The notes under the pieces are model-generated. The model made no database searches, was not told the origin of the DNA, and saw nothing but the letters and a program-made list of their open reading frames with translations. Below are positions 27,871-64,000 of a stretch of DNA of 64,000 bases, in pieces. The DNA comes from Spirogloea muscicola (taxonomy: Eukaryota): positions 341,832 to 405,831 of the forward strand of contig WELB01000003.1 of assembly GCA_009602725.1 (NCBI GenBank), written 5' to 3'. The position numbers and the translations under genes are program-made. The number at the start of each line of letters is the position of its first letter. Positions within the stretch are counted from its first letter, which is position 1.

Positions 27871-27949
27871 GGCTGGGCGCCGGGGGAGCGGGGTCACGGC
27901 GAGGAGGAGGCCATTATGGGCGTCCGGGGAGCGGAGCTGCGAGCCTGGG

Positions 27950-28183
27950 GTGATGCCCATCCTCCTCCGCAATGGGGTCCCTCGGACGAGGCGTGTCGAT
28001 CTGGTCGGCGTCCCCCTGGGAGGTGGCAAGCGGCTCCTCATGGACGTTGTCCTCACCGACAGCTTCCGGACGAAGGGCCCCATTACTTCTGAGACCGGCT
28101 ACGCTGCGAAGGTAGCCGAACGGAAGAAGCTGCACAAGTACAAGGACCACCCGGCGGGTGATACCTTTTACCCCCTGGCCATG
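27950..28183 (+). mobile_element. Fragment of a CRE-like retrotransposon endonuclease (RLE) domain
   Basis: PGVMPILLRNGVPRTRRVDLVGVPLGGGKRLLMDVVLTD...AAKVAERKKLHKYKDHPAGDTFYPLAM aligns by eye with the RLE of the element at 49.9-52 kb. It ends at a single N. Confidence 0.8.
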
Positions 28184-28184
28184 N

Positions 28185-29791: not shown

Positions 29792-30369
29792 GCATTGTTG
29801 GCTGCTGTGAAAGAGAGCAGCCTCATTGCCATGCCGTGATACTCCTGCCAGCCAAGGAGAGACACCTGCCTGCACAAAGCATGTATTAAATTTGATCATT
29901 AAGCTTGTCAGTACATATTGATGCTGCAAGTGCATATTCTGAAGATTGTTAAGCAGTGGAGAGTAGCTAGCTAGCTGAGTGCTAGCTTTTGGCATTTGAC
30001 ACACAGTTGTCACGGGAAAACGAAACCTAGTGGCAACCGCACGTGTCTTATAGCAAGGTAATCTGAAGGGGGCCAATGTGGCCATTCATGGCAGGAAGAA
30101 ATCCGTGGTGCACTTCCACATCTGTGCGAGACATTATCAGGTTGTGCAATTTCAGCAAAGCCTGCAGGCGGATCGATGACTGCCACCTAAACTAGGAATG
30201 AATCAAGATCTAGATTGTGTGCTCTACACAACAACCTGCCAGTGAATTCACCAGCAAATACTATCCTGTACAGGAAGACAAAATGATAGGATCTTTCACC
30301 AACTCCAGTCAATGTGTTATAGATTCCTGCTTGGCTTGGAGGACCCAAGCATCAGCCTTCAGCGGCCGC

Positions 30370-36569: not shown

Positions 36570-36789
36570 CCTAAAGCCGGAGGCCGCAGCGAGAGCACGG
36601 CCAGCACGCAGATGCAAGGCGTGGGCCATGGACCGCTGGAGGGAGACGGACAAGCGCATACGATACACCTGAGCCCACGAGCCAGCGGCGTTGAAGTCAG
36701 CCGGCTCACCGCGCCTGCGGGACACAGCACACCGTGCAAGCCTGGCCAACAGGTCGAGCCAGTGGGATCCGAGAGCCCCATGCACGTCC
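36570..36789 (-). mobile_element. 3' fragment of a CRE-like retrotransposon ORF
   Basis: DVHGALGSHWLDLLARLAR...YRMRLSVSLQRSMAHALHLRAGRALAAASGF is nearly identical in DNA to 52770-52988. It starts at a single N (36790). Confidence 0.85.
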
Positions 36790-42537: not shown

Positions 42538-46786
<4,249 letters not shown>

Positions 46787-46790
<4 letters not shown>

Positions 46791-47963
46791 TCCGTGCCCA
46801 GCTGGATGGGCATTACGGAGGAGTTCTCCACCGCGACCTTTAAGCCAGCCTCCGAAAACACCCCCTGCATACCATCTCGCAGGAGATCGTGGGAAGCGGT
46901 CCGCTCGCCCCCGTGTGCGCAACGGAGCATGCGCAGCCAGCTCCGCAGGTTCAGCGTGACGGGCACCGCACTCGCACTGAGTGACGCCCACGAGGCAGGG
47001 AGGGAGGAGGCGCAAGAGCCGGTGGACCGCCGTCCTGGAGACCTTGTCGGGCATGATGAGCGCCGCGTGGAGTGGGAGCGCTGATAACCACGCCGCCGCC
47101 CCAGGGGAGGAGGCTGAGAGAAGCCGGGCGCGCCCGCGAAGGTCAGACGGAGGGAGAAGCGCCACCACCTGGTCAGAGGTCGCTTTTTCAACCAGCGCCG
47201 TGAAGCGTGCCTAGGCACGCATGTCAGGGGTGTGGGAGAGGTGAACGAAGGGGACGGCCTGCTCCGACATGTTGGGGTGGACCGCCAGGAGCCCGTCGCG
47301 GTCAGAGCGGAGGGCAACCTGAAAGGGCAGCTGACCGATCTCCACCTCAGCTGCAGCCCGCTCCAGGGCGCGCTGGCCGTGGACGAGGAACCTCTGGCAC
47401 ATGGGGGCTGCCACCTGAGCCCAGCTACCCATGTAGGCCGCCTCGCAAGCGCGGGCAACTGAGCGGCATCCCAAGCCGTCACGGCTGGTCGGCAGGCTAG
47501 CCTGCAGCAGCGCAGCTGGTGAGGTGAGGAACGCAGGGTGCTGCACGAGGGTGGCCGCAGACGACAGGATGCCGGAGTCAAAGGCCGTATACGCTGCCTT
47601 CACCGCAGACGGGGGGGGATGGTGCGGGCCAGATATTGTGGCCGCTGCGCAATGCACCGTGTCAGCATTGCGGTCGCCGGCTGCATGTCCTGCGGCGTGT
47701 GAAGACGGTCCGCCGGCCGGAGGTGTTCCTGCAGCCGCGCCTGCAGCTGCTCCGTCACAAAGGCAGGTGCGCCTAGGGGGACGCCGAGGAGGGTGAGGCC
47801 CCCGGCTGGTGTCTAGCAACCCTCGGGCAGGCGCAGGTGGGCTGGCAGGCCCTGAGGGGACCAGGCGCTGCATTTGTCCGCCCGAATGTCCAGGCCGATC
47901 ACGTTGGGTGGCAAAGGCAGCTGCGACATCCTCTGGCTTCCCCACCAGCGTGATGTCATCAGT
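46787..47963 (-). mobile_element. Inverted partial copy of the adjacent CRE-like element (YADD region to RLE start)
   Basis: The reverse complement matches ~45556-46745 with scattered substitutions and small indels. Confidence 0.92.
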
Positions 47964-49409
47964 AGAGCCGCCGGCGCCACCATGGTCGTACCTTTGCCAA
48001 CTTAGCATAGGGCTACGCTTTATGTCGTATTATCTGTTCGCACTAGTTTTGCCCGAACGATGTATAGGCCTGCATTGGCCTTCCTTTCGTTTCGTACACA
48101 CTGCGCTCCCTCTCTCTCTTTTCCAGCCGTGGAGTTACTGAAAGTTACTCCGACTGGGGGGGTTACATTCCCATTTGCTGTGGTCTCTTGCATAGCTGTG
48201 TGCTTTGGCACCTTCCGGCCCTTTGGACCTTGTTCATTCAATCTAGGCTGGCATCACGCAGCATCTCATCGCTGTCAGTCGAAATAGCTGTTCTCTTCTC
48301 CCGCCTTTCCGAACCTATCGTATTTGGGCCGTAGATTGGAAGAGCTGTAAATTGGAAGAGCTGCTTCTCTTTCTTTGGGCTGGCCATTGGCTTTCATTAA
48401 TACAGAACAGCTCTTCCACTTGGAAGAGCTTCTTCTTCTTTGGGCTGGGCTCTCGCAGCCATTGCCTTACATTGCCGAAAATTGGATGAGCCGCTTCTTG
48501 CAATTTTTAGAGGGAGGCCAAAGCAATCAACAGCACTCGCAACATAAGGCAGGCTGTGAAAGGCCAGCCCAAAGGAATGTATGAAATAATAGTCTCCAAG
48601 ATGTCAGCAAGTGCAAATCAGATCTACCAGAGGCCGCATTCCTTCCACTGGAAACGAGAAAGACTTCTCTCCCAGTAGAGGGTGATGGCTGTGATTAGCA
48701 ATCCCAGAATAAAGATTTTTCAAAGTTTGAAGGGGCAGAAGAGCTGGAAGAGCTGCAGTTCGGCTGCATATTACCGATTTGCGGCTGCTGAACCCCCATC
48801 AAGCAATGCACACTCCATTCCCCTGGTTCGCCCCTTCTATTTTCTGGGCTGGCCAATCACAGCCAGTATGGGACAAGTATTGTCACTTTCTCTATGCTTG
48901 CAGGACTTCTGCTCTTTTGGGCATTTTCTCTCCTTGGGCTGGCCTTCCCCAGCCAATCGCCCCTTTTTGGACGAGCTTCTCTCTTGGTTTCTTTCTTTTG
49001 GGCTGCCCTTTGGAACTCTGGGTTATAAGGCTCCCATCGCTGTGGCCACTTGCATAGCCGTGTGGATTTAGCACCTTTCGGCCTTTGAACCTTGTTCGGT
49101 CTTTCCGGGCCGGCATAGCCGTGTGGATTTAGCACCTTTCGGCCTTTGAACCTTTTTCGGTCTTTCCGGGCCGTTCACACACTGACCTCGCCCCCTTAGA
49201 AAGAGCTTCCGATCTGGAAGAGCCCTTCCCTACTTCCGTAACATTTGGCGCCTTCCCTTCCACATTGCCCGTTTCGTCGGGCTGGCCTCTCACAGCCACT
49301 GGCTTATGGTGGAAAATCTGTTTATTTCTCTCTGTCACATAGTATTGTCGTGCAACTTCCGATCATTTCAGACCTTGTGTTCCCGTGGGGCTGACCTCCT
49401 CATAGCCAC

Positions 49410-52213
49410 TGTAGAGAACCTCGCCCTACACACGCAGTAAGGGTGAGCAGTCCTTCTTGAGTTCGGCTGTAGGGGGTTAGGGACCAACCCACTACACAGG
49501 CAAAGCACTAGCGCATTGGCGCAGCGGAAGACAGGCACTGTGGCGCCGCCATCCGGCGGCGACTCCACCTCCTGGGCGCAGGCCGGCGCAGCAGGCCCCG
49601 CAGCGGAGTGCGGTGGCGCTCGCGGCGAGCAGCGGCAAGGCTGCTCCTGGGCTTCCCTTGGTCGAACTCCTCTCGAGCCTCAGCCCCAAGGCTCCTCGTG
49701 CTTCCCCGTGCCACCCCCCTCCAGGGAGAAAGGCGCGCGGGGCGCATGAAATGAAAAGGGAGGCCAATTCAAGCCAACACACAGTTCAAGCAGAGGCGAG
49801 TGCAAACTAAACAAGGCTACATAACATAGAGACCTAAACTAAGGTGCCTAAGGTGACATTAGTACCCACGGGAGAGCACAAACAAATCGGACAAGCTAAC
49901 TTGGGGAGCTGGAGCGCCGCCACGAAAGCCGGAGGCCCGACTTAGAGCGCGCCCTGCACGTTGATGAAGAGCGAAGGCTTGCGAGCGCAGCAAACAAAGC
50001 GAGAGCCGCATTCTGTAGTATGCAATTAAGGCCTGTGGAATGCTGGAGTGGCCCAAGCTGCCCCCCCCACTTTTACGACGCGCATCAACCAGCCGGGCCA
50101 GATGCTGGATCAGAGAGGACCATTTCAAGCCGTAGCCGCCGTAGATATCCATGGCACACGGGCAAAGATGGTCCCCTCGGGGATGGTCCTGGTAGTGCCG
50201 CTCCTTCTTGCGCTCCGCGCTGGACGTGGCCCAGCCAGACACGGTTGACGTGGGTGCGCCAGCCTTGTATGCGTCGATCAGTACCACGTCCAGGAGCAGA
50301 CGAGGCCCACCGCCCCGGGGGGTGGCGACCACGTCCAGACGCCGCACGTATGGCTTGCCGCGCCTGAAGGAGATTGGCATGATGCCGGACACCTCCATCG
50401 CCGGATGATACCCCGCCTCTCGCAAAATTCCAAACATTGTATCCCTGAGTAAGTCGTGGGAGGCAATGCGCTCACCCCCCTCAGCACACCTCAGCATGTG
50501 CGCGGCTAGGGCGAGCTTGTCATCGGCAATGTGGCCACACTCGCACTGGCGGATGCCAGCCAAGCAAGGGGGGGGGAGGCCGAGGTGGTGATGGAGCGCG
50601 GTACGAAACAGGTTGTCTGAGAGCCGAAGGGACTCGTATATCGGCAGAGCATTTAACCACTCCGACGCGCCTGGGGAGCTGATGGAGAGGAGCCGGGTGA
50701 GGCCACGTCCATCGTCCTTGAGCAGTCCCTGCAAGTCAGAGGCGGCCTGCACGTCCGCAGCGTGAGAGTAAAGGCCCTGCGCTTTCCTGTCAGAACAGCG
50801 TGCCCATGCCGCAAAATCTGCATGACCCTCTGCAAGCGTTGGTAAGCAGCGCGAGAGGTCACGTAGTGCTGCGGTTAGAGAAAGCTGGAAGGGCAGGTTC
50901 CCTGTTGCAACACCCGCTATGGCGGGTGCTAAAACAGCCTGGCCCCTCAGGATGAAGCGACTGGAGATGGTGGAGGCCACTTGGGCCCAGCAACCCAGGT
51001 GAGCTGCTTGGGACAGGCGAGCCAATGGACGGCACCCAAGGCCGCCTTTACTGATGGGTAGGGTACACTGTAGGATGGCCGCCGGCGTGGCGGATAGGTC
51101 GGGATGGTCCACCAGGCCATGAAGAGCCTGTTGGAGTCTGGAGTCCACGATAGAGTAGATGGCGTTTAGTGCAGTGGTGGGGGGCACAGTCCGCAACAGG
51201 TAAGTGGGACGCCGGTGTGTGGGGATGGCCACCGCAAGCTGCGCGTCCTGTAGGGAGGGGAGGGCCGGGAGGGTCCGGAGATAGTTCTCAAGGGTGGACT
51301 CCACAACTTGCTCCACATGCGCAGCAGCCCCCAACGGGGCTCCAAGCACCACCATGCCGAGTGGTGGGGTCTGGCACCCGGCCGGCAGCTTGCTGGAGGG
51401 AGGGATGCCGGCTGGAGACCAGGCTGAACACTTCTCGGGCCTGCTGAGGCCGAGGCTGTGAAGCTCGCGCTCCGACGTGCTGTAAGCGCTGGTGACTTCA
51501 GTTGGGGGTCCCACCAGGGCGGTGTCGTCGGCGTAGCTTGGGATTAGCACGGCAGGGTGGGCCTTCGCCGTATTACGCAGCGCACGTAGGTGTGCCAATG
51601 CAAAGAGGAACCCGCCCAAAGGGTCTCCCTGCCGGGTGCCTGTGCTGGATTGCAAGACCACCTGTGACGTGCCCGCTCCCCAGAGCAGTCGGGAGGGTGC
51701 TCCGTAGGAAGACCGGAAGAAAGGGATGAGGGAGGGAAAATGCGTGCGCAGCTCCTCGGCGATGACACCTCTGTCAACACTGTTAAATGCATTCTTCACG
51801 TCCACAGATAGAGCCATCCAATCGGGATTGCAGTCTAGGGCAACACGTAGACCATGAACCACTGTCTCCGCGCCCGCAGACAGCCCTGCGCCAAACTGGT
51901 GTGGAGAGAAGTGGAGCTGCGCCGCCTCTCTGTTCTGCTGGAATAGAATTTTTGAAACCAGTCGGGTAAGGACCCGCTCACACCTCCAGGAGTGTGAGCG
52001 GGTCGGCCCATGGCCCGCCTTGCGGCAGGCCAAAGATCTTCCCTTGAAGGGGCGGGTCCTAGCGAGGGGCATTTCTGGACGGGCGGGGCCCGTCTCTGGG
52101 CGGCCACTTCCCCGGCAAGCCAGCCCGCCACCTGGCTGGCCACTTGTCCCAAATGGCCGGTCATGTAATGCCAACAGAGCCATGTGGCTCAACCAAACGG
52201 CTGGTTCTTTACA
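49410..52213 (-). mobile_element. Solo LTR of the chromovirus family, split by a CRE-like insertion
   Basis: Termini tgtagagaacc...ggttctttaca with a 5-bp TSD GCCAC (49405-49409 and 52214-52218). Both halves align with the LTR at 63131-63663. Confidence 0.92.
49726..51982 (-). mobile_element. 5'-truncated CRE-like non-LTR retrotransposon with open RT-CCHC-RLE frame and 3' UTR
   Basis: QFGAG...DVKNAFNSVDR...GTRQGDPLG...YADD...LPISKGGLG...CECG...HMLRC...RRLDVV...AERKKERHY, stop at 49859. Flanked by the direct repeat CCTCCAGG (49718-49725 and 51983-51990). Confidence 0.93.
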
Positions 52214-52702
52214 GCCACTATCTTACTTTGGAAGAGCTGTTTCTTCTTATTACATTTTCACAGCCCCGCCACTTTCAAACACTTATTACCCTTCTGCATG
52301 TATATTTTACAGTATCTAACATGGCTGGAAAGTCAATGCAGCAGTGAAGACTTGACAGATGCCTGCAGACTAGCCACCTCATCTGGCTGGAACCATTTGT
52401 CAGTGCGGCAGGAAAGGCTTGACAGATGCCTGGAGACAGTCTCCCAGGCTGACGACTGGGGACGTTGGTGTCTATGTATGTATATATAGAAACCCCCCCC
52501 GAGCTGATAACAGCTCAGTTTTGAAGCGTGACGATAGATAGCACGGTGCTGACGCTGGAAGAAGTGGCTCTCCCAATGGGGGCAAGGGCTGTGAGAAGCC
52601 AGCCCGAAAAGAATTGACAAGGTTCGAAGGGGCCAAACTACGAGCTAAGCAGCGACTGCGGGGCCTGAAGAGGCTATGGCAGAACGGGGGAGGATGGACC
52701 AC

Positions 52703-53296
52703 TCAGTAGTTACAAGTAAGGAGCCTCACATCCGACAGACTAGCTGCCGGAAAACTATCTCCCTGACGAAAGCCGGAGGCCGCAGCGAGAGCACGGCCAG
52801 CACGCAGATGCAAGGCGTGGGCCATGGACCGCAGGAGGGAGACGGACAAGCGCATACGATATACCTGAGCCCACGAGCCGGCGGCGTTGAAGTCAGCCGG
52901 CTCACCGCGCCTGCGGGACACAGCGCGCCGTGCAAGCCTGGCCAACACGTCGAGCCAGTGGGATCCGAGAGCCCCGTGCACGTCCACAGCTAGGGGGACG
53001 AACTCATCGGCAGCCGGGTGGTCGGCGTGTTTGGCCGCCTTGCTGCGAGCGGCCTTCGCCGCAGCGTGGCCGGCCCGCGAGGCAGAAAGCCCGGGGTTGG
53101 AGCGGTCGACCACATCTGTGGTGACCACATCGGCAATATGCGCCCGCCACCGCCCGTCGTGGACGCCACCGGGTCGACGCGGCGCGTGTGGAGTCCGTCG
53201 GCCCTTTGGAGGATGGGCATGACAGATGTATTCTCCATCGCAACTGTGAATCCGGCCTCCTGGAAGATGCCGAACATTGCGTCGCGGAGGAGGTCA
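52703..53296 (-). mobile_element. 3' fragment of a CRE-like element (RLE domain)
   Basis: HDLLRDAMFGIFQEAGF...RRVDPV, then frameshifted to DVVTTDVVD...KAAKHADHPAADEFVPLAVDVHG...LSDVRLL*. Confidence 0.88.
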
Positions 53297-53629
53297 TGAG
53301 CAGCTGTGCTGGAAGGGCGTGGGGAGGTGGCAGCAGTGCATTCTTTGATGGCAACCGCAGTGTTCGTTGGTGTTGACGTGGACATTAGACCGCTCATACA
53401 GCCCGTTGGTGGTAGACCGTCACGTTATTGACGGGGGTATGACGAGGACCGGCAAGAGGGCGGTGGCGGCCGACTGATGGGTTAGATTGTGGGTGGTAGA
53501 CCGTTTAAAGCCATCGACAGGTCGTGGCGGGTCGTGGACGGGGTACAGCCGGTGCCGACATTTCCACACAGCATGTCTTGCTCCAGCAGACCATGCCATG
53601 ACAACGCCTTTCATGACGCTACCAGAAAC

Positions 53630-54010
53630 ACACCCTTAATTTTGAAATTTGGTCGGCATCGCCGATCACCTTTGCAGGTGGGGACGCCTGAGCGCGTTCT
53701 GGCCGCAGAAAGCTTCATCGGTAACCTCCTGGAGCATCAGTGGAGGGCTAAGCAGATTATGACAATTGCTCAGAACCGGCAAGAGCAGTATGCTGATTGC
53801 CGTCGTCGGGATGTGTCATTCGACGTGGGTGCCCAAGTTTTGATGAGCACTAAGATGCGGGCTGTTCGTTCGCACAAGCTGCTGCCGAAGTGGGTTCAGA
53901 CCCTTTCGTGTAATGCGCCTGGTTGGCAAGGTCGCATATAAGCTTGACACACCGGTACAATAGAATACCCACAAGGGTTTCCATGTCTCAACTTGAGCTG
54001 AGACACGTTG
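53630..54010 (+). mobile_element. Degenerate Ty3/gypsy integrase C-terminal (Tf2-like SH3) fragment
   Basis: AQNRQEQYADCRRRDVSFDVGAQVLMST...KLLPKWV...AYKL pattern with frameshifts. Confidence 0.75.
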
Positions 54011-54042
54011 AAAGTGGTGAGCTGGCCCGCACAACTTTACTT

Positions 54043-54110
54043 GGCCTCTTCCCCTGGAGCAGCGGCGTGGCTCATGGCCCTTCCCATCTCCGACGCCCTC
54101 AGGCTCCTGA
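54043..54110 (+). mobile_element. Tiny CRE-like fragment
   Basis: ASSPGAAAWLMALPISDALRL matches ASSPGAAAWLSALP (46.4 kb) and SSPGASEWLNALPIYESLRL (50.6 kb). Confidence 0.65.
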
Positions 54111-54154
54111 TCGGCACTACGGCTTTCCGTAGTGCCGATCCACCGGCTCCTCTG

Positions 54155-54653
54155 TGACGTTCCCCCCGTTCAAGCGAGCCAACGGTGCCGGTAACCTTAC
54201 ATGATCGTATTGTATTTGGGAGTTCCAAACGATACGGGTAAATTCGGTGCACTATACGTGTAGCAAAGTGTGGGCTGAGACCCTGGGCACGTGCGGCACG
54301 CGCCACGTGCGGCACGCGCGGCTCGCGCCCCGCGGCACGCACTGCACGCGCCACGTGCAGCGCTCGCCACGCGCAGCACCCGCCACGCGACTCGCCTTCC
54401 CATCCGTCAGGCTCGTGCCACGAGCAGCACGCGCCACGCGGCACGCGCTGCATGCGCTACGCGCGGCACGCGCCAGTCCCCGAGATTCGTATTCCTGTAT
54501 CCCCATTCGTCAGGCCCGCCCCTCCAGGGGATGACCTTGAGGGCTACCCTCGTCACACCCTCTGGGGAGGGGCTGCAGGAGAAACGCTACAAGATTTGCG
54601 TTTCCCCTGCAAGTAGTGGGCCGAGGCCAGACTCCTCGGTATCCCCAACATCG
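54155..54653 (-). mobile_element. LTR-like sequence related to 62527-63008, opposite orientation; boundaries approximate
   Basis: The reverse strand begins gatgttggggataccgaggagtctggcctcggcccactact, versus gatgttgaccgggtaccccgactctggtctcagccctact at 62528. Both contain a CACGCG/CACGTG-rich tract and are similar in length. Confidence 0.55.
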
Positions 54654-55008
54654 ATACCGGCAACAAACAATCCAATTGATAGAGCAGTCAACAACGTCAC
54701 AGTCCAACATTTTAGCCGACCACCTCAATGTCGTCGACGAAGTTTACAGAAGACAGTACGTCGATTTTTGTTGCACGCCGCATGGCTTGGGTGTACCCGC
54801 AGAACGACAGCAATGGATGCTTGTGCATTTCTTGGTGTGCAAGCCACCCCACCGGCCCTCTTACAAAATGCTCCTACCGCCCTAGACACCGTTTCTACGG
54901 CACTGGTGGTAGATCCACGTGGCGGGCCGCTGAACTTCACCTGGAGCCTGTGTCCCCTACGCCTTTGGCTACGCTACCACAATCAAGCTTCAAATGGTCA
55001 CAACGCGT

Positions 55009-55494
55009 CAGCGTTGTGACCAAATCCTTACAATCTTCGTTGGTGTCTAGCCAAGAAGCGTCCACCTTGCGAATTATCTCCAATAGGCGATCGGCAAGTT
55101 TGGTGCTCTCGCTGACGAACAGATCCAGCTTAATGGTGGTGGGATCAACGATGTAATCCTCAATTTCAGTTTCAGTACCTAGAAAGTAGCTGAGCTCCAC
55201 ACTCTCGCCCGCCGGAACGAACGCGAAAACATGCTCGCTGTTGCGCAGCGCCACCGTCTCGGTGTCGCCCCCAATAATCCATGGGAGTTTGCGCAACCAT
55301 TGATCTACCAGACGAACAATAGGGTCAGAGTATTCGCCGCAGGCATCTTTGCCGTCAAAACGGACGACGATGCGGCCCTCGAAGAGACTGATATCGGCTA
55401 GTTCGCCGCGATACGTATCGATCTCTTGCAGAAACGACGCGGCATCCAGTGTACTGTCACCGGCGTCAAGATTAAAGTCGAGCGCGAACTTCAT
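55009..55494 (-). pseudogene. Bacterial-type hypothetical protein, 3'-truncated
   Basis: Intron-less acidic globular ORF MKFALDFNLD...DLVTTLT, preceded by the 3' end of another same-strand ORF (55571-55746) in operon-like spacing. It is cut at a hairpin junction. Confidence 0.6.
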
Positions 55495-55746
55495 CGGTGT
55501 GGTTGTGGTTCTTCCAACTTTTTATGCATCCAAATTACAAAAAAACGAGCCGTTAGGCCAGCGATGACCTTTACTGCACCGTTTTGGCCGTCGACGTCAA
55601 CCCTCGTCTGTCTTTAACCTCAAGCGCTGGGTCATTTTGCCTCAAGTACAAGCTTTTGAGGCGCGCCAGGGCTGTCTCCAATCGTTTCACCCAAACTTCT
55701 GCTGTTGTCGTTTTTTTGCCAACGGCGAGAGCTTTCTCATAAACCA

Positions 55747-56189
55747 TGATGGTCACGCTGTTGCAGAGGGAGCATATTGAGCGTGCATCGGAAGACTTTT
55801 GGCAGAGTATCAGGGCCGCTGGGGGCCGGCTGATGGCTGTGGGTCCTGGGGCTGTTCTTGTGGACAGAACATCGATCCCAGGCCGCGATGGAATGGTAGT
55901 GCGGCGCCTGGGAGCAGCTGCGGATCTGGACGCCACCGATGTGGGCGCGGTCAGCCTTGTCGGAACGGGGCTGTTGCGGCAGGCGATGTTCGATGTGCGC
56001 CGTTTTTTGCGGGGAGCTTTACATTTTGGTACGGACCCCTTGCTAACGAGCGTTGTGCCAGTGGCAGATGTTGACACGCTGGTGTGCGCTCTGCATGCAC
56101 ACTTTATTATGGCGTCATTTCGATCTTCAGGTTGCGCCAGCTCTCTCCGCCATAAGCTATTTCTGCCGCACGCCAATCACATGCAGTAA
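55747..56189 (+). pseudogene. lysC: Aspartate kinase C-terminal ACT-domain fragment (bacterial)
   Basis: DVGAVSLVGTGL...TSVVPVADVDTLVCALHAHF is the typical aspartokinase second ACT ending. Confidence 0.65.
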
Positions 56190-56292
56190 AAAAATTGGTG
56201 TATTTGTTGTACAAAGTGCTTAGTTTGGCGTGTAACTCAGCGTCGGTGTTGTTGTGCAACGATACAACGTCGTTATTGCTGTTGGGGTCTTA

Positions 56293-56440
56293 AAGATGCA
56301 GTGTGTGCCCTACACCCATATAGCCCAGAGTCACCTGCCCGCGCATTCCATCGGCTAGTTGCGCCACGGCCGCTGCCGGTCCGTAACCAAAGGGTTCAGC
56401 ATTGAGTATAAGTTGCGGTCTATAAACCAGGTCGACAAAC
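56293..56440 (-). pseudogene. Short bacterial-type fragment, possibly a glycosyltransferase-like N-terminus
   Basis: LILNAEPFGYGPAAAVAQLA...TLGYMGVGHTLHL* resembles a GT-B first beta-alpha unit. Family not certain. Confidence 0.3.
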
Positions 56441-56496
56441 CATACAGCCGACGTCCCAATAAGGTAAGCTGCTCTTGCATCTGTCTAGCACTTTGA

Positions 56497-56870
56497 TTGG
56501 CGCCCCAAACGCCCTCCCACCGATTGCTTTAGCCGCTTGGCCTGCAACTGTTGTTCAAGGTGGGCTTGGCCTTGAGCTTGTTCAGCGGCCGGCAGCTGCG
56601 CAATAGCTATGGTGCGCGCCTGATCGAGGTCGCTGAGATCAGGACGCGGAAAATTCAATGCGGCCCACAACAGCACCGACAGAGCCAAGATAACCGTGCC
56701 GGTCTCCTGAACAAATACTTTGCAGCGTTCAAACACATTGAGCAACACGGCACGGGGCTCCGGCAGGTGATAAATCGGCATATCCAGCAGCAGTGGCGGG
56801 AGAGATGAGCGCAGCAGCGTGCGTTCGAGCAGCCACGCCGTGCCCAGGGCGGCCATAAAATGGCACCCGC
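56497..56870 (-). pseudogene. feoB: Ferrous iron transporter FeoB internal fragment (bacterial)
   Basis: LLLDMPIYHLP...FVQETGTVILALSVLLWAALNFP...SVGGRLGR corresponds to the FeoB ELPxYRLP/GTIIL/SxxGRxG region. Confidence 0.85.
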
Positions 56871-56891
56871 GGCTACCTGTTTGCTAAAAAT

Positions 56892-57772
56892 GTGTATAAA
56901 AGCCCCCTTAAACATCCGGTTGCCCGTACCCTCGACAAAATCCATGCGGGTTTAAGCGAGCCCGAACGCAGCTTGGCCAACGACGTGCTGCTGCGCGGCG
57001 AAGCGGAGCGCTTGCCTGAACAGTACAAACGCATCACGTTCCAGCTCGCACCGGAAAAAGCGACCCGCTTGACAGTGGCCTTAAGCAGCTTCTTGCAGCA
57101 AAGGGGCGACCTGCCCACTCTGTTACGCAGCTTTTTAACCATTGACGACGCGAACTTTGCAGATCGTTACACGTTTTACGACGTCGTTGCGCCGATGATA
57201 CGGCTGTACACCGTGCGCATCCCTGACACCATGACGCTCACTGCGATAACTCATGGCGGCTACACCAAAAGCGTCAAAGTGCGTGTGTGGGGCACCTTTC
57301 AATTCGCTGGGCTGGATCGCTCACCGCTCTCCGGTATGCAAAACCTGATGGACCTGGTAACATTTAGGGAGCTGTACGGCGCCAGCGATCCGGAGCAGCA
57401 GCAAGAGCTGGCAGCCCTGCGCCGCACCGTTGAAGTGCAGGACATCAACCGGAATGACGCAGAAGCGCAGATGTTCACCGATACAAAAACCGTCCGAGCA
57501 CAACGGACCCGGGCTGGCGGGCCGGTGCAATTTTCGTCTGGGACGTTTGCCGAGGTCAAAAAGCTGCGCAATCGCGGCCAAGAAACCTTCGATTTGGACG
57601 AATTGGCCAATGGCCTGGCGCTCAACGCCGCCGTGCTGCTTAAAGATCCAACCCGCATCGCCGCAACGCATGCACACCTGCAGGGGTTAGCAGCAAAGGC
57701 GGGGCTTGCTCTGCAAGTTGTAGACTGGAAATCTGCCGCAGGCCTTATTAGCCGTTTTGTCACCGTTGTGGC
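56892..57772 (+). pseudogene. ABC transporter permease (FtsX/LolE-like) periplasmic fragment, Myxococcota-like
   Basis: FYDVVAPMIRLY...GYTKSVKVRVWGTFQFAGLDRSPLSG..LMDLVTFRELYG...LNAAVLLKDP...VVDWKSAAGLISRFV, truncated before the TM helices. The taxon assignment is from recollection of the family, not a search. Confidence 0.75.
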
Positions 57773-58245
57773 GTAGCCTTCAAGCGTTTAACAATTCTTG
57801 TTTGTAAGCTTGCAAAATTATCCTGTCCTTTTTCTGTCTTCATTAAAGGCTTTGACTCGCGAGCCATACGATAGTGGACCATATAGTCAATGGAATCTTC
57901 AACCCAACATCCTGCAATTTCATCTAACTTACTTACATCACTTCTGAGATGGTCCTGGTGACTACCACACAGTGAGCCTAGCCATCCAAGGGGCCAGCAA
58001 AGGACTATAGATAGCCCCGCTCCACCAGCTGTTGCAACGAATATTGTTCCGCCTGTAGCAATTATAAGCCCCGAAACAACTCCTCCAAGCAATAGGCTCG
58101 TTATGATCCCGACGCAACGACCTGCACCCTTACATACAATTACATTACCTGAAGCCGTAGGAGTTAATGCCTGGTATGTGGAAGGCCTCGATATTGCCAC
58201 ATGGTTTGTGCTAGGATTTGAGCGCGTGTTACCCATTGTAATCAT
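57760..58245 (-). CDS. Orphan AT-richer ORF with a Gly-rich hydrophobic hairpin
   Basis: 161-aa intron-less ORF containing GIITSLLLGGVVSGLIIATGGTIFVATAGGAGLSIVLCWPLGWLG. Its 3' end overlaps the junction with the permease fragment. Confidence 0.45.
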   Translation of the reverse strand: MITMGNTRSNPSTNHVAISRPSTYQALTPTASGNVIVCKGAGRCVGIITSLLLGGVVSGLIIATGGTIFVATAGGAGLSIVLCWPLGWLGSLCGSHQDHLRSDVSKLDEIAGCWVEDSIDYMVHYRMARESKPLMKTEKGQDNFASLQTRIVKRLKATPQR

Positions 58246-58315
58246 TCGCGATTATGAGCTGGGGACTGGATGTATGCTCAATTTATTGGCGGACCTCTTT
58301 GTCATGATCTATTGT

Positions 58316-59151
58316 CTAGGGCTGCAGACCGTTATCAGCACTACATAAACGATCCGCAAATAGCTGGTCTTTCATAAGCCTGTGCATGTAATCCAAAACT
58401 CTATACATGCATTTAATGCACGACATAGCATAGTCATCACTTTCTTGGGCTATAATTCCGATCGTTTTGTATTTGTACGGGTGTGCTGACCCCATCCTTT
58501 TACGCAATAGGCGCCGAACAGCCGTGCTGTTATCGCAAGGCCCAAAAATACTACCGTCATTAGGGGCAAAGGCGCTGCCAAAGAACCAACGAAGTTCGTG
58601 TATTGTTTGCGGTCCAAAACAACGATACTGATAAATATGTTATAGATCTGAGGTAAAAGAAGCCAGGTGCGTAATACCTACATTTTCAAGCAAGATATTC
58701 TTAGCTTATTTGAATCAACAGCGCGCCACCAGTAAATCATGGTTTCTGGGAAAGTCAGCGTACATGCCATAATATCCAAACCTGGTGATAGCATAGAACA
58801 ATACGTGCGCTTTTCAGACCACCATGCGCGCAGTTCTCGTGAGGACTCTGCGGCAAACAAGTCATCACCTTTACATTCTGCGTCCCATCGGAAAATATTC
58901 GTAAACCAGGAGTATATTGGTTTACGAGAGGATACTAATGATAACCCTCTAAAAGATTTTGCATAGCGGGATACAATAAGATATAAGGCTGCTATTCCCG
59001 TGCCCGCTACCGCTGCAGATTTATTAAAAGGTGGCAGACAACCAGCAGTAATCACTCCAAGCCCAGCCGCCATCAGGCCGTCCCACAACACATCCATTAA
59101 ACTATCATTTATTACCGAAGATATCAAATATTTTGGCATCACTTTACGCAT
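58316..59151 (-). pseudogene. Orphan AT-richer membrane-protein ORF, apparently broken into two frames
   Basis: ORF 59151-58678 has two hydrophobic segments and is followed by an open frame YQYRCFGPQTIHELRW...NGLQP* ending at 58316. Confidence 0.4.
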
Positions 59152-59394
59152 TACTATCGTGACGCTAAATACATAAACAAAGTCACTCTTTCCTTCTGGC
59201 CGGCGGGCACAGCATGTCTGAGGGTTTTTCTACTTCACTTTTCCTATTAGCCATCAACATGGGACATAGCCGGCAAAAGTTGAAGCTGCTGGTTGACAAA
59301 CTGTTGGATTCCGAACTCAAGATTATGGCGTACTCTAAACTCTTCGTTGTGCTCGTCTACTTACTGATATTCGTGACTATGTCCACCTCACGCG

Positions 59395-59790
59395 TTCATA
59401 GTCGCAGGCTATCAAGGCGTCAGCCGCGGACGGGAGGTAACCACCCTCGGCCGTGGCGGCTCAGATACAACGGCGGTGGCGCTAGCGGCTGCCCTAGGTG
59501 CGGCTGCATGCGAAATATATTCAGACGTAGACGGTATCTACACCGCCGATCCGAATGTTTGTCCACAGGCACAACGGTTACCCCAGGTGCCCTACGCCTT
59601 GATGCATGCCATGGCAGGCGCCGGAGCCAAAGTGCTCAATGTCGATGCCGTCGAGTTGCGCGGCGCGCGGGAGTGGATATCGTCGCTCAGAAAACGGCGG
59701 ATGCCAGCAGGCCGACAAAACACAATCGCAGCCAACAATGTGTTCACTGTTTGTCACAACGGTGGCTGGCTCTCAACTTGCAGCTCAGGT
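59395..59790 (+). pseudogene. lysC: Aspartate kinase catalytic-domain fragment (bacterial), frameshifted
   Basis: [47 protein letters not shown]...[12 protein letters not shown], continuing after a frameshift near 59657 as ARRAGVDIV. Confidence 0.93.
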
Positions 59791-59824
59791 ATCGTCAGGC
59801 GTCCTCCATGAAAGGTAAACTTGA

Positions 59825-60142
59825 ATGAAGCCATTTACGACCCTAAACGACGCGGCCCGGCAATGGCAACACGACGTGTGGCGCCTAAAGCAGCGATTAA
59901 TCGGCCAGATCCCGCCGGGTAGCACGATGTTGGCACTGCTGCGGCCGGATCCAGGGCCTACACCGCTGCCACTGCGTCGTGTCATGGAGCCCCTTGTAGC
60001 CATTGGCGCACTTGTCGCGCTGCTGGCATTGCTCGGCGTGGGAGCGCTGTCATTCACCCTTTTTATGTTGGTTAGCGTCCTGATGTATGCCATTTTAACC
60101 CAGGTTTTTGGGATCAAGCTGGGCATGCTGCAGCCAAGTTAG
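59825..60142 (+). CDS. Small bacterial-type membrane protein, apparently complete
   Basis: 105 aa with two C-terminal TM helices and a purine-rich GAAAGG (Shine-Dalgarno-like) just upstream of the ATG. Confidence 0.55.
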   Translation: MKPFTTLNDAARQWQHDVWRLKQRLIGQIPPGSTMLALLRPDPGPTPLPLRRVMEPLVAIGALVALLALLGVGALSFTLFMLVSVLMYAILTQVFGIKLGMLQPS

Positions 60143-60443
60143 TACAAGCTCCTACTCCCGATGGATGCCTCTCACGACGGTCACTGCGTGCACTCTCTCC
60201 TGCCAAGATCTGCAGTCATGCGGGCCCCCTACACCATGCATCAAGGCTATGGCTGCCTGATGCGCAAAATATGCACGTTTGTATTCCAGCCAACTCACTA
60301 TCCGGCACAGAGCGCCGAACGGGTGCGCGCCTTTAGCCAAGAAGGTGTTTTGGTATACGTCACCCGCGGTCACTCGGCCTGGCTGGCACTTTGTTTTGAC
60401 TTCGTCCTTCAGGATGTGATAAATCCTAGCGGGGGTTGAAAAA

Positions 60444-60827
60444 ATGAGTAGCATAGAAGCAATGCAGGCTTTGCGTTCGGCGGGCTTAGATTCTAGAGTA
60501 GCTGAGGCCATGGTTATCCATCTTGAAAGAATTATTGACAACCGGGTGGCCACCAAAGCTGACGTGTCCGAGTTACAGAAAGAGACTTCAGGCTTACGTG
60601 TCGAAATCAGGACCGGTTTAGCCGAGTTAAAGTCCGAATTAAAGTCCGATTTACAGAAGGAGATTTCAGGCTTACGTGCCGATACTAAGGCCGAAATTCC
60701 CTCATTGCGGGCCAAGACGATGAAAGCTATCCACGATGCCAAGTTTCAGCTGATTGCCTTGATGATTACGCTTTTTGTGCTTAACGGCGGCAGCATGATT
60801 TTGCTACGGATCTTCGCTGCCCATTGA
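60444..60827 (+). CDS. CCDC90/DUF1640-like coiled-coil protein with C-terminal TM anchor, apparently complete
   Basis: LRSAGLDSRVAEAM...VATKADV, heptad repeats (ELKSELKSDL) and a hydrophobic tail. GGGGG lies upstream of the ATG. Confidence 0.75.
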   Translation: MSSIEAMQALRSAGLDSRVAEAMVIHLERIIDNRVATKADVSELQKETSGLRVEIRTGLAELKSELKSDLQKEISGLRADTKAEIPSLRAKTMKAIHDAKFQLIALMITLFVLNGGSMILLRIFAAH

Positions 60828-61479
60828 CCGTTTGATACGTAACGCAGGTATCCTGTTCAACTGGCTGACACTGCCGAGGAAGACCTGAAACTCGAGCATA
60901 TCGTCCAATAGACTGACGCATTGGCGACGTCTAAGTTTATATATCCCGGTGAGCATCCCAACCAAACCCGTCAGGCGCGGCCCAAAAGGTGGCGCAGGAT
61001 TTTATCTGCCATATTGGCCGCGCTCCGATGGCCACAACAACAGGTGACGGCATGGCCACGTATTTCAGTAATGTACACAATGACGGGAGACAAGTCGGCG
61101 ATTTTATAGCGCCGAGTATCTGAATCAGCGGTTTCTGGCAATGGCCGCCGGCAGTTTTCGCACTCCGGCGGGTAGACATCGATAACCTTTAAGTTTTTCG
61201 GTATCGGCCAGTCGCCACCATTACCTCAATGTCCTTTCTTGCTAACTGGCTGCGTGCAGCCAAGGTTCTCAGCGGCTTGCACCATAATCGTTTTCACGCA
61301 AAAACTGATATTCCCGTGATTCAACCTTTGCGGACCGGCTGTTAGCATCGCAAACTGTTACCAGACCTTGACAGACCTTGACTCAACCATGTCACAGATG
61401 TATGGGTTTTAAACGATATTTCAGCCAGTTCATCGGTACTTGAACATGACACAAACAACATGCTGAAGACACGCAGTTA

Positions 61480-61603
61480 ATGAGTAGCAGCCTATTATTC
61501 AAAAGAAAGCCTGTAAGCGTTTTACAGCAAGAGGCAGCTGATATTAACGGCCTAATGCGTTCTATCGACTTAATGATGCTGAGTGTCGGCGCAATGCTCG
61601 GAC
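61480..61603 (+). pseudogene. APC-family amino acid permease N-terminal fragment (bacterial)
   Basis: MSSSLLFKRKPV...LMRS-IDLMMLSVGAMLG, compared with the family pattern LFRRK...LKRxLxxxDLxxLGVGAIIG. It has a small internal deletion and stops immediately afterwards. Confidence 0.65.
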
Positions 61604-61638
61604 CAAGTTGATTCAATGAAGCAACGCCACGTGGCACT

Positions 61639-62187
61639 ATGAACAACTTGCGGGTTTGCTCGCCAGCATCAATGAGCAGTATTCCAAACCGAGACGCCAC
61701 GGGCACACCGCATCCCGTGCGCATGATTGATCCGCCTGTTTTCAGCGCTCTAAAGCCAAATAACCTCGCCGACTCCTTCTTCAAAAATGGCTACGTGGTG
61801 GTGGATGACGTGTCACGTCCCCAACAGCGCAACGCTGTGGTCACGATCATCGATCAGTTGGCAGCAAACCCGCAGACGCGGTGGGCGGGCTTTATGGACT
61901 TTTACCACGACGACTCACTCGCTCAGCTGCGACAGAGTCCCCATCTGTATCAGGTTTTTACGCGGATCTTTGGCACCTACAAGCTGTGGACGGTTTTCGA
62001 CCGCGTTGTTCATTGGCGTGCCAGCGAAGGGGATCAACCCCTGCCACCCCATGTCTCTGGGACTCTCGAACCACCCATAGCCGCTACCGCGGCGAGCCCA
62101 CAGGCGATCGCTATGCGGCGCTCATTACCTACAAGCCTGCATTGAACGACCCTGCCCTGCTGACACTGCGCATGACCCATTTCGCCA
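61639..62187 (+). pseudogene. Phytanoyl-CoA dioxygenase (PhyH) family gene with internal deletion
   Basis: FFKNGYVVV...LRQSPHLYQVF..IFG..KLWTVFDR...LPPHV is cut at the HxD motif (~62053) and resumes in another frame as WDSRTTHS...RYAALITYKPA. Confidence 0.7.
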
Positions 62188-62340
62188 ATGGCCCTGCGCT
62201 TTGCGGCGCCGGTCATTGTTGCTTGGACGCATCGCCATCCAGGCGGTCACATGCTGCATGTAGAACGGCTTGAATTCACGCCCAGTGGCGACAAACACGC
62301 TGACGTGCTGCGACTCACCGCCGCGATGACCGCGCGCGAC
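62188..62340 (+). pseudogene. Lipid A lauroyl/myristoyl acyltransferase (LpxL/HtrB family) C-terminal fragment
   Basis: MALRFAAPVIVAWTHRHPGGHMLHVERL...DVLRLTAAMTAR resembles the LA.RTGAPV...R...G region of this family. Confidence 0.55.
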
Positions 62341-62526
62341 CACTGCCGAGAGAGAGCGCTTGAAAAGGCCTGCGACTGTCCTCAATATGCAGTCACAGTC
62401 TTACTCCAGAGAGCCGATGAAGGTCCGCGACGACGGGCTGCAGCAGCGGGCAGCAGCAGGGCTGCATCGGCGGGCTGCAGCAGCAGGCGGCAGCAGGGCT
62501 ACGCCTCAATCTCGCGCGGGCTTCAC

Positions 62527-63008
62527 TGATGTTGACCGGGTACCCCGACTCTGGTCTCAGCCCTACTTATAGTGCTTCATGTGCCTCCCCCCCCAGGGGT
62601 CTGTGGGAGGCTCGTCTCAAGGCCCACCTTCGCGAAGGCGGGCCCAACAAGGGGAAACTAGTGCGAGGGCAGGCTACGCGGCTCCCTTCTGGAAGCGGCG
62701 GCCGTCCTGCGGAGCGGCCCAGAGGTGCCGCCGTGCGGCGCCGGTTCGCGGCGCCGCTCTGCGCGTCACAGACGCGTGGTGGCGTAGTCGGCGCGCCACA
62801 CGTCTCTCGGCGGCCGGTTCGAGAACCCGCCGAGGATCTCCTCTCTGGGAGCCCAAGGTGCGCCGCCTCTTCTAGAGGCGGCGCGCCTGCACGTCACATC
62901 GTCAGCAGGCGTGTCACGACGCGCGTCACCTCGCGCGTCGCTTGCGCGTTGCATGCGCGTCGCACGTGCGTCGCACGTGCGTCGCACGCGTCAGTCCCGT
63001 GTACGTCA
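62527..63008 (+). mobile_element. LTR-like sequence followed by a PBS-like motif and leader; boundaries approximate
   Basis: TGATG...CGTCA termini followed by GTGGTTACAACCGAGC. Related to 54155-54653. Confidence 0.55.
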
Positions 63009-63130
63009 GTGGTTACAACCGAGCGCTAAACTCGAAGTCAAGCGTCTCGTAACGGCGGGGACGCTGCAGCTCTGCTGCTGACTTAAGCAGCCCCGCTGCT
63101 GCCTGCTGCCGCCGCTGCCGCCACAGCTCT

Positions 63131-64000
63131 TGTAAGGAACCTCGCCCTACACACGCAGGTAGGGTGAGCAGTCCTTCTTGAGTTCGGCTGTAGGGGTTTA
63201 GGGACCAACCCACTACACAGGCAAAGCACTAGCGCATAGGCGCAGCGGAAGACAGGCCCCGTGGCGCCGCCGTCCGGCGGCGACTCCACCTCCTGGGCGC
63301 AGGCCGGCGCAGCAGGCCCCGCAGCAAGGTACGGCGGCGGCTGCGGCGGCGAGCAGCGGCAAGGCTGCTCCTGGGCTTCACCGGCTCGAATTTTCCCCGA
63401 GCCTCAGCCCCCAAGGCTCTTCGTGCTTCCCCGTGCCACCCCCCCCCCCCAGGGGTGTGAGCGGGTCGCCCCAAGGCCTGCCCTTGCGGGCGGGCACAAG
63501 GTCCCCCCTTGGCAGGGTGGAACCTGGCGAGGGATATTTCTGGACGGGCGGGACACTTGCCCGGCAAGCCAGCCCGCCACCTGGCGGGCCCACTTGTCCC
63601 AAATAGCCGGTCATGTAATGCCAACAGAGCCATGTGGCTTCACCAAATGGCTGGTTCATTACATACCTCCCCACTCTGGTGTTCACGTCCTCGGGAACAA
63701 CGAGAAAACAGCCGACAGGTATTAAGATGGCCGACGGCTGCTGCCTCTACCAAGCCTAGGAGAATCACCACCCTTGGCCAGGTATTCCCTGAGAGCATCT
63801 GGACAATTTGCCAAATTGGCCGCAGGCTCCCACGTGTTGTGCTCAGGCCCATACCCGAGCCACTTAACCAGATACTCACGGGTCTTACGCCCTCGAGGCT
63901 TGTCCCTGTGAGACAAGATCTCTTCCACCTCAAACTCAAGATCATCCTCGATGACTAGTGGAGGTGGGGGCGGTTGGACACGACCATCTGAAAGGAAGGC
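63131..64000 (-). mobile_element. 3' end of a Ty3/gypsy chromovirus: chromodomain, polypurine tract (PPT) and 3' LTR (63131-63663)
   Basis: [11 protein letters not shown]...[22 protein letters not shown] chromodomain. PPT gagtggggaggta (63676-63664) abuts the LTR, whose termini are tgtaatgaacc/ggttccttaca on the minus strand. Confidence 0.93.

What the first reader, a model, noticed from the sequence alone, without database searches (positions are those of the whole stretch)
54654..62345. 7.7-kb patchwork of shattered bacterial gene fragments embedded in an algal transposon nest
Seen: about ten intron-less pieces of ~0.15-1.4 kb are butted together in mixed orientations. Most are cut mid-gene: FeoB, ABC permease, aspartate kinase twice, APC permease, PhyH dioxygenase and lipid A acyltransferase. 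Known: FeoB and lipid A acyltransferases point to a Gram-negative donor, and the permease motif pattern is one I associate with Myxococcota. Inference: DNA from one associated, possibly intracellular, bacterium was fragmented, re-ligated and stored in heterochromatin. This would be a NUMT/nuwt-like 'shred-and-concatenate' insert, recording an unrecognised symbiont or parasite. It could also be a small-RNA-producing archive of foreign DNA, by analogy with endogenous viral elements in piRNA clusters.
Basis: partly seen in the sequence, partly recalled or inferred. Interest (0 to 1): 0.88.

Follow-up and report, generated by a model that had tools for sequence, protein, structure and literature searches.

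The report
Scrambled myxobacterial DNA in algal chromosome
This 7.7-kb stretch is a patch of at least 13 mostly broken bacterial gene pieces, eight matching one uncultured group of myxobacteria, joined to host repeats in a eukaryote (likely a green alga) and likely present on only one chromosome copy; it was likely cut and stitched in by host DNA repair and is likely a young, non-working snapshot of bacterium-to-alga DNA transfer.

Summary
One read-derived contig spans the whole patch and both host junctions in 3 of 4 runs (two overlapping contigs in the fourth). It has no variants inside and 0.40-0.47 of the depth of two-haplotype host contigs, so it is a real insert, likely on one haplotype. 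At least 13 pieces are recognisable. Eight (3.6 kb) match one small uncultured Myxococcota class. Five of those eight come from a single ~8.5-kb gene cluster conserved in that class, cut mid-gene, partly inverted and reshuffled. So the input was likely one or a few long molecules, not a genome-wide shredding. FeoB, the ABC permease and the lipid A acyltransferase lie at other loci in relatives. One break carries a perfect 12-bp fold-back, as expected from polymerase-theta-type end joining. CpG is not depleted, but a stop codon and frameshifts show early decay. It works like a complex NUMT/NUPT or nuwt with an unusual donor. Intracellular lifestyle, a single donor for all pieces, heterochromatin and a small-RNA role are not shown.

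The parts
54496..54650 (+). Left host flank: end of an LTR-like repeat, abutting the insert
   Evidence: Similar to the reverse complement of 62527-62660, score 66 against a maximum of 51 in 500 shuffles; multi-copy by depth bin. 'LTR' is read from the terminal CA and the retroelement context (inference).
54651..62345 (.). Whole bacterial-type insert, single copy, likely on one haplotype
   Evidence: One contig 54544-62441/62451/62436 in X1-X3, two overlapping contigs in X4; depth 40/56/97/134-143; no variant listed inside; CpG o/e 1.04 against 0.60 in the host TOR region
54790..54959 (+). Piece A: lipoprotein N-terminal part (donor cluster); start approximate, probably frameshifted
   Evidence: 49-51% over 43 aa to class genomes; frame signal upstream of 54830 weak
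54995..55022 (.). Perfect 12-bp inverted repeat with 4-nt loop at the break of the 178-aa gene (fold-back scar)
   Evidence: 1 of 300 shuffles has such a hairpin; 0.028 per 7.7 kb in class DNA; family alignment ends here
55009..55752 (-). Piece B: TPR-lipoprotein C-terminus, native spacer, and 178-aa hypothetical gene cut at residue ~161 (donor cluster)
   Evidence: 105 homologues, best 87%; 21 of 22 class genomes; TPR-to-gene spacing 256 nt here, 217-288 nt in 14 of the 17 loci that hold both
55800..56130 (+). Piece C: aspartate kinase C-terminal part (about residues 287-399), inverted relative to A, B, E
   Evidence: 42% over 113 aa
56155..56418 (-). Hypothetical protein N-terminal part, Streptomyces-like, with one in-frame stop
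   Evidence: 42% over 92 aa to a Streptomyces plasmid protein; 0 of 401 phylum genomes
56503..56859 (-). FeoB internal piece
   Evidence: Pfam PF07664 3e-10; 13 of 22 class genomes, best 48-55%
56868..57770 (+). FtsX-like ABC permease internal piece, joined 5'-to-5' to FeoB
   Evidence: 56% over 99% of the query to a Myxococcota protein; 14 of 22 class genomes
57773..59397 (.). Unassigned, lower-GC (40-49%) segment with non-host CpG level
   Evidence: No credible Pfam, NCBIfam, plasmid, phage or representative hit for the frames tested; CpG o/e 1.04 in 58001-60000
59398..59730 (+). Piece D: aspartate kinase middle part (about residues 135-248), frameshifted near 59650
   Evidence: Pfam PF00696 2e-21; up to 86% to a class genome; frame switch
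59825..60412 (+). Piece E: small membrane gene plus PlsB-type acyltransferase N-terminus (donor cluster, native adjacency)
   Evidence: 51% and 47% to L001; the L001 protein has PF01553 and PF19277
60444..60827 (+). Intact DUF1640/CCDC90-like ORF, 127 aa
   Evidence: Pfam PF07798 3e-4, below cut-off; 26-35% hits in 4 plasmids (3 Arsenophonus) and 8 phage records (APSE, Liberibacter); 0 of 22 class genomes
60995..61210 (-). IS66 transposase piece
   Evidence: NF033517 6e-5; plasmid IS66 4e-3
61362..61381 (+). Perfect 10-bp tandem duplication in an unassigned linker (possible filler scar)
   Evidence: 1 of 300 shuffles, but 0.11 per 7.7 kb in class DNA
61480..61608 (+). APC-type amino-acid permease N-terminus
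   Evidence: TIGR00906 E=0.027, profile positions 11-48; weak
61720..62070 (+). PhyH-like dioxygenase N-terminal part
   Evidence: 28% over 99 aa to a PF05721 protein of G205; three weak plasmid PhyH hits among 4 records
62182..62340 (+). Lipid A acyltransferase internal piece near the C-terminus
   Evidence: 17 of 22 class genomes, best 61%; the 9 best of 24 hits among 401 phylum genomes are in the class; PF03279
62385..62660 (-). Right host flank: multi-copy repeat, then an LTR-like end facing the insert at 62527
   Evidence: High summed depth from about 62400; similarity to the left end; chromodomain on the minus strand at 63725-64000, Pfam 1.5e-18

Best explanation
The stretch is bacterial DNA joined to host repeats, likely on one haplotype only, that was likely cut into pieces of 0.1-0.9 kb and likely rejoined and inserted by the host's end-joining repair. 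Shown: it is contiguous in reads, single-copy, joined to host repeats, and eight pieces match one uncultured Myxococcota class, five of them one ~8.5-kb gene cluster. Inferred: one or a few long molecules from that bacterium reached the nucleus, were cleaved, and a subset of pieces was concatenated in mixed orientation, with polymerase-theta-type fold-back synthesis at one joint, into a double-strand break in a retroelement nest where insertion costs nothing. It is likely recent, carries no intact class gene of known function, has begun to decay and most likely does nothing.
For: Contiguity: single contig over both borders in 3 of 4 runs, two overlapping contigs in the fourth; no branch where an intact donor would diverge. 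One haplotype: depth 0.40-0.47 of two-haplotype and 0.83-0.94 of one-haplotype host contigs (values copied); 232 listed differences in 19.9 kb of host gene region against none inside the insert, about 90 expected. Donor: 178-aa gene in 21 of 22 class genomes; its 21 best hits of 42 among 401 phylum genomes are all in the class, 42-53% against 34% or less; tree pairs it with P0004 at 100/97; lipid A acyltransferase best 9 hits in the class. One cluster: of 23 loci with the 178-aa gene, 19 hold aspartate kinase, 17 the TPR end, 15 PlsB, 8 the lipoprotein, 5 the small membrane gene; 5 loci hold PlsB, TPR, the 178-aa gene, kinase and lipoprotein within ~8.5 kb; chance of 5 of 16 random pieces in one 10-kb window is 1e-5 to 2e-7. 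The two kinase pieces do not overlap. Fold-back at a break. Young: CpG o/e 1.04 against 0.60. Decay: stop, frameshift, present in the reads too. Precedent: complex numts/nupts (PMC6215612, abstract and Background read); cleavage and concatenation of incoming DNA in Chlamydomonas (PMC6952782, passages); snap-back junctions (PMC5728401, passages).
Against: All four runs are one sample, kept as contigs, library not on record, and may be the source of the window, so they are not independent; no long read or PCR was seen. The empty allele was not seen. Only one joint shows a clear scar, and linkers are not enriched in short templated copies. Microhomology cannot be scored without the donor genome. 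Five labelled pieces and about 2.8 kb are not tied to the class. One- and two-haplotype contigs were sorted by hand from partial tables (6-12 values per class and run), and a 1:1 mix of two strains or a recent duplication would look the same. The host being a green alga rests on recalled plant-like TOR and CCR4 motifs, not on a call.
Confidence: 0.8

Rival explanations
1. A long contiguous bacterial insert went in whole and was scrambled afterwards by deletions and inversions in the transposon nest.
For: Pieces A, B and E keep donor order and orientation; the flanks are active repeat nests.
Against: No host repeat lies between any two pieces (flat depth); 13 or more joints in 7.7 kb with undepleted CpG leave little time; FeoB, ABC permease and lipid A acyltransferase are absent from all 25 loci around the cluster and lie on other contigs in relatives.
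Confidence: 0.1
2. Same mechanism, but the pieces come from two or more bacteria of the algal surface community (compatible with the best explanation; it only changes the donor count).
For: Non-class pieces have lower GC, 48% against 57%, and best hits in Streptomyces, Arsenophonus plasmids, APSE and Liberibacter phages, and a cyanobacterial plasmid; co-concatenation of DNA from lysed cells is described in Chlamydomonas (PMC6952782, passages).
Against: All those hits are distant (26-58%) and of accessory or mobile type; GpC o/e is alike in both sets, 1.34 and 1.30; no class genome is closer than 53% at the 178-aa gene, so the donor's accessory genes are unsampled.
Confidence: 0.3
3. Library or assembly chimera (whole-genome amplification) or contaminant contig.
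For: Inverted joints are typical of amplification chimeras (established knowledge); one sample only; library unknown; the window holds gap artefacts elsewhere.
Against: Depth equals one haplotype in 4 of 4 runs; host coverage is even, 46-138 in 29 of 30 bins of X1, the other being a repeat; no intact donor branches; stop and frameshifts in the pieces; no bacterium could carry this many mid-gene cuts.
Confidence: 0.04
4. The patch is kept as a small-RNA-producing archive against the donor bacterium.
For: LTR-like ends face the insert from both sides, which could drive convergent transcription (inference).
Against: Single copy, likely one haplotype, ordinary housekeeping and accessory pieces; no known route by which algal small RNAs would silence a bacterium (own knowledge); CpG shows no long methylation history.
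Confidence: 0.06

Closest known systems
Complex NUMTs/NUPTs and mosaic insertions (numins); PMC6215612, abstract and Background read
   Same: Several foreign pieces from different places and orientations joined directly at one nuclear site, formed before or during integration by end joining; recent ones are polymorphic.
   Different: The donor is not an organelle but an uncultured Myxococcota bacterium; five pieces cluster in one donor locus; junction microhomology could not be scored.
Nuclear Wolbachia transfers (nuwts) and 'genomic fossils'; PMC4046930, search listing and start of abstract only
   Same: Decaying bacterial DNA in a host chromosome that records a past association; donor not seen in the present reads.
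   Different: Donor class has no intracellular member that I could find; class genomes held are 1.9-7.0 Mb of unknown completeness; only one insert is known because the host genome could not be searched.
Cleavage and concatenation of transforming DNA in Chlamydomonas; PMC6952782, passages
   Same: Incoming DNA is cut by a nuclease and the mix of fragments is concatenated into one site in a green alga.
   Different: That is laboratory transformation; this is a natural event with environmental bacterial DNA.
Snap-back synthesis-dependent MMEJ (polymerase theta); PMC5728401, passages
   Same: Short inverted repeat created at a break end by fold-back priming.
   Different: Seen at one joint only; no genetic test of the polymerase.

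Membership tests
Complex nuclear insertion of foreign DNA (NUMT/NUPT-type) | Physically joined to nuclear DNA at host depth | tested here: met
   one sample, contigs only
Complex nuclear insertion of foreign DNA (NUMT/NUPT-type) | Multiple adjoining pieces from different donor places and orientations | tested here: met
Complex nuclear insertion of foreign DNA (NUMT/NUPT-type) | End-joining signatures (blunt ends or 1-7 bp microhomology) at joints | tested here: inconclusive
   One fold-back and one tandem duplication; no enrichment in linkers; donor sequence unavailable
NUMT/NUPT in the strict sense | Donor is the mitochondrion or plastid | tested here: not met
   Best matches are Myxococcota genes
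nuwt-type endosymbiont transfer | Donor is a heritable intracellular bacterium | not testable with these tools
   Donor uncultured; DUF1640-like hits in symbiont plasmids and phages are weak
nuwt-type endosymbiont transfer | Pieces degenerate after insertion | tested here: met
   In-frame stop, frameshift, mid-gene cuts
nuwt-type endosymbiont transfer | Many inserts across the host genome | not testable with these tools
   No host genome held; no second CpG-rich patch in this window apart from a gap artefact
Functional horizontally acquired gene | Intact, expressed, intron-gaining or conserved ORF | tested here: inconclusive
   Only the DUF1640-like ORF and the small membrane gene look whole; promoter-like sites at chance level, 5 against 5.8; expression not testable
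Small-RNA cluster of foreign DNA (EVE/piRNA-like) | Produces small RNAs that act on the donor | not testable with these tools
   No small-RNA or methylation data were available

The most novel reading that the evidence does not exclude
The patch is the footprint of an undescribed alga-invading myxobacterium (parasite, predator or endosymbiont of an uncultured Myxococcota class) whose chromosome was shattered inside the algal cell, and it catches bacterium-to-streptophyte gene transfer at its first, still-segregating stage.
Probability: 0.2. Interest if true: 0.8.

Novelty: new variant of a known kind. Interest (0 to 1): 0.52.

Why it matters
Bacterial genes acquired by streptophyte algae helped shape land plants (PMC12448838, passages), but those events are ancient and their first step is not visible. 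A single-haplotype, barely aged insert with readable breakpoints and a traceable donor cluster shows that step: long environmental DNA cut and stitched like organelle DNA or laboratory transgenes. With the empty allele likely in the same culture, the repair mechanism becomes directly testable. It also ties an uncultured Myxococcota class to an alga, a link not found in the searches made. It is not a working gene system.

Tried and rejected
No host genome is held, so other mosaics, the empty allele and an intact donor could not be searched. No RNA holder listed. Rfam: 0 matches at E up to 1. Idea that linkers are patchworks of short templated copies: rejected, 10-mer matches per 100 nt are similar in linkers and coding pieces. 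Idea that all pieces are neighbours in the donor: FeoB, ABC permease and lipid A acyltransferase were in 0 of 25 loci. The two representative hits for 58681-59229 are repeat-inflated and were rejected; the Atlas gave no result for this frame. The PhyH piece had no hit in the large protein search or in 22 class genomes; 2 of 401 phylum genomes hit, one of them unpublished (G196), on which no claim rests. APC piece: no plasmid or class hit. A cNMP-gene end upstream of the small membrane gene and a chromodomain in the left flank (score 28) were not supported. A TGA=Trp donor code was considered and not pursued, since long pieces are open under table 11. Promoter scan at chance level. Earlier findings by place and sequence: none.
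Full report
Setting. The window is eukaryotic: an intron-split TOR gene (Pfam FRB_dom and FAT; mTOR structures at 6e-61), a CCR4-like gene and an FtsH gene, followed by a nest of reverse-transcriptase elements (RVT_1 at 44868-45931 and 49862-52222, chromodomain at 63725-64000). That the host is a green alga of streptophyte type is my reading of recalled plant-like motifs and comes from no call. No host genome is held.

Is it real? Four runs of one sample hold 0.96 of the stretch's words. Laid on 49000-64000, X1-X3 each give one contig from 54544 to 62436-62451, and X4 gives two overlapping contigs; no variant, indel or joint is listed inside 54654-62345 (long tables are cut to the best-supported rows). 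The contigs run about 106 nt into the left repeat and about 90-105 nt into the right one. An intact donor chromosome in the reads would break this path at every joint; it does not, although contigs drop rare variants. In the control region 14000-33900 the same runs show two depth classes and 232 listed differences. Insert depth (40, 56, 97, 134) is 0.40-0.47 of the upper class and 0.83-0.94 of the lower class (6-12 contigs per class and run, sorted by hand from the printed rows). About 90 differences would be expected in 7.7 kb at the host rate, and none is seen. The insert is therefore single-copy and likely on one of two haplotypes. The runs may be the window's own source, so this excludes mis-assembly and contamination well, and amplification chimeras less strictly; even host coverage and decayed codons argue against the latter.

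What is in it. Pfam on 33 frames confirmed FeoB and aspartate kinase. Searches with relatives resolved the rest. At least 13 pieces cover 4,929 of 7,695 nt; see parts. About 2.8 kb, chiefly 57773-59397, stays unassigned, but its CpG level is that of the insert, not the host.

Donor. The 178-aa hypothetical gene has 105 homologues, best 87%, the named ones Myxococcota or 'Deltaproteobacteria' MAG proteins. It occurs in 21 of 22 genomes of the class of G002, whose record is titled Myxococcota (one of the three titled records is labelled Bdellovibrionales by its depositor). Among 401 phylum genomes 42 match, and the best 21 are all in that class. A tree of 70 rows (the window piece, the 56 best homologues and 13 locus copies) pairs it with P0004 at 100/97. 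The lipid A acyltransferase piece points to the same class (9 best of 24 hits). The best ABC permease hit and a 68% hit of the 178-aa gene have nearby NCBI accessions and likely share one assembly (inference). I recall the class as GTDB XYA12-FULL-58-9, but no call shows that name; 4 papers mention it, one as enriched on conifer needles (PMC12574031, passages). No class genome is close: 53% at best.

The key new result. In relatives the order PlsB, small membrane gene, cNMP gene, UDG, TPR genes, 178-aa gene, aspartate kinase, lipoprotein is one cluster. Of 25 loci examined, 23 hold the 178-aa gene; 19 of these also hold the kinase, 17 the TPR end, 15 PlsB, 8 the lipoprotein and 5 the small membrane gene, and 5 hold five of the genes within ~8.5 kb (several loci are short contigs and some are related). 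Five insert pieces (2,166 nt) come from this cluster. A, B and E keep donor order and strand; the two kinase pieces are non-overlapping, inverted and moved, and other pieces are interleaved. Random draws from a 2-6 Mb genome would give this with probability 1e-5 to 2e-7. FeoB, ABC permease and lipid A acyltransferase were in none of the 25 loci and lie on other contigs. So the input was one or a few long molecules that were cut finely, with most of the DNA lost.

Joints and age. The 178-aa gene stops matching its family at residue 161-162, exactly where the preceding 12 nt are repeated in reverse around a 4-nt loop. Such a hairpin arose in 1 of 300 shuffles and 0.028 times per 7.7 kb in class DNA. 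This fits snap-back synthesis as described in PMC5728401 (passages). A 10-bp tandem duplication at 61362 is weaker evidence (0.11 per 7.7 kb in class DNA). Linkers are not enriched in templated copies. CpG o/e is 1.04 in the insert, 0.60 in the TOR region and 0.72 in the neighbouring retroelement, so host-type erosion has not set in. An in-frame stop and a frameshift in the kinase show that decay has begun. The left end abuts an LTR-like terminus, and a homologous terminus faces it from the right.

Mechanism. Shown: contiguity, single copy, piece identity, donor class for eight pieces, clustering of five, one fold-back. Inferred: hemizygosity, entry of long DNA, nucleolytic cleavage, end joining with polymerase-theta-type synthesis, insertion into a repeat nest, neutrality. 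The route of entry (invading bacterium, attached predator or lysed neighbour) is open. The intact DUF1640-like ORF has weak hits mainly in symbiont plasmids and phages (3 of 4 plasmid records, 8 of 8 phage records), a faint hint of a host-associated donor, but it was found in 0 of 22 class genomes.

Comparison and novelty. It works like complex numts/nupts, which form before or during integration (PMC6215612, abstract and Background), like nuwts (PMC4046930, listing only) and like cleaved, concatenated transgenes in Chlamydomonas (PMC6952782, passages). It is not a NUMT/NUPT, and nuwt-type membership cannot be tested. A search for Myxococcota, streptophyte, horizontal gene transfer and alga together gave 0 papers; the listings showed no such case. 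No supplements were read, and host genome papers or their supplements could list this region among contaminant or transfer candidates. Two earlier AI notes on Wolbachia-type mosaics in animals agree that such patchworks are a known kind. Verdict: a new variant of a known kind, interest 0.52; 0.8 if the donor proves to be an alga-invading myxobacterium (probability about 0.2).

Noticed in passing
window 54940-55494 (-); family P0004-P0108: The 178-aa gene belongs to a conserved family with no Pfam domain, present in 21 of 22 genomes of one Myxococcota class and usually just upstream of aspartate kinase; a possible class marker of unknown function.
   Followed up: partly
window 49000-54100: Unique contigs and many joint contigs in the left transposon nest also sit at one-haplotype depth, so the whole nest may be haplotype-specific.
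   Followed up: no
window about 42540-42990: Two N gaps flanked by long poly-A and poly-T runs: a scaffolding artefact.
   Followed up: no
window about 28000-28200: A short, extremely high-copy repeat (summed depth 76,000-192,000 in its bin) near the 5' end of the TOR gene.
   Followed up: no
window 44868-48029 and 49862-52222: Several non-LTR-type reverse transcriptase copies in both orientations; the last has a 787-aa open frame whose C-terminus looks like a restriction-like endonuclease (recalled motif).
   Followed up: no
window 36573-36789 and 52769-52985: A 217-bp repeat at 97% identity, part of a very high-copy family.
   Followed up: no
window 58453-59229 (-): A 183-aa and a 75-aa frame in register, split by one stop, in the AT-rich unassigned part; possibly one decayed gene of unknown family.
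   Followed up: partly
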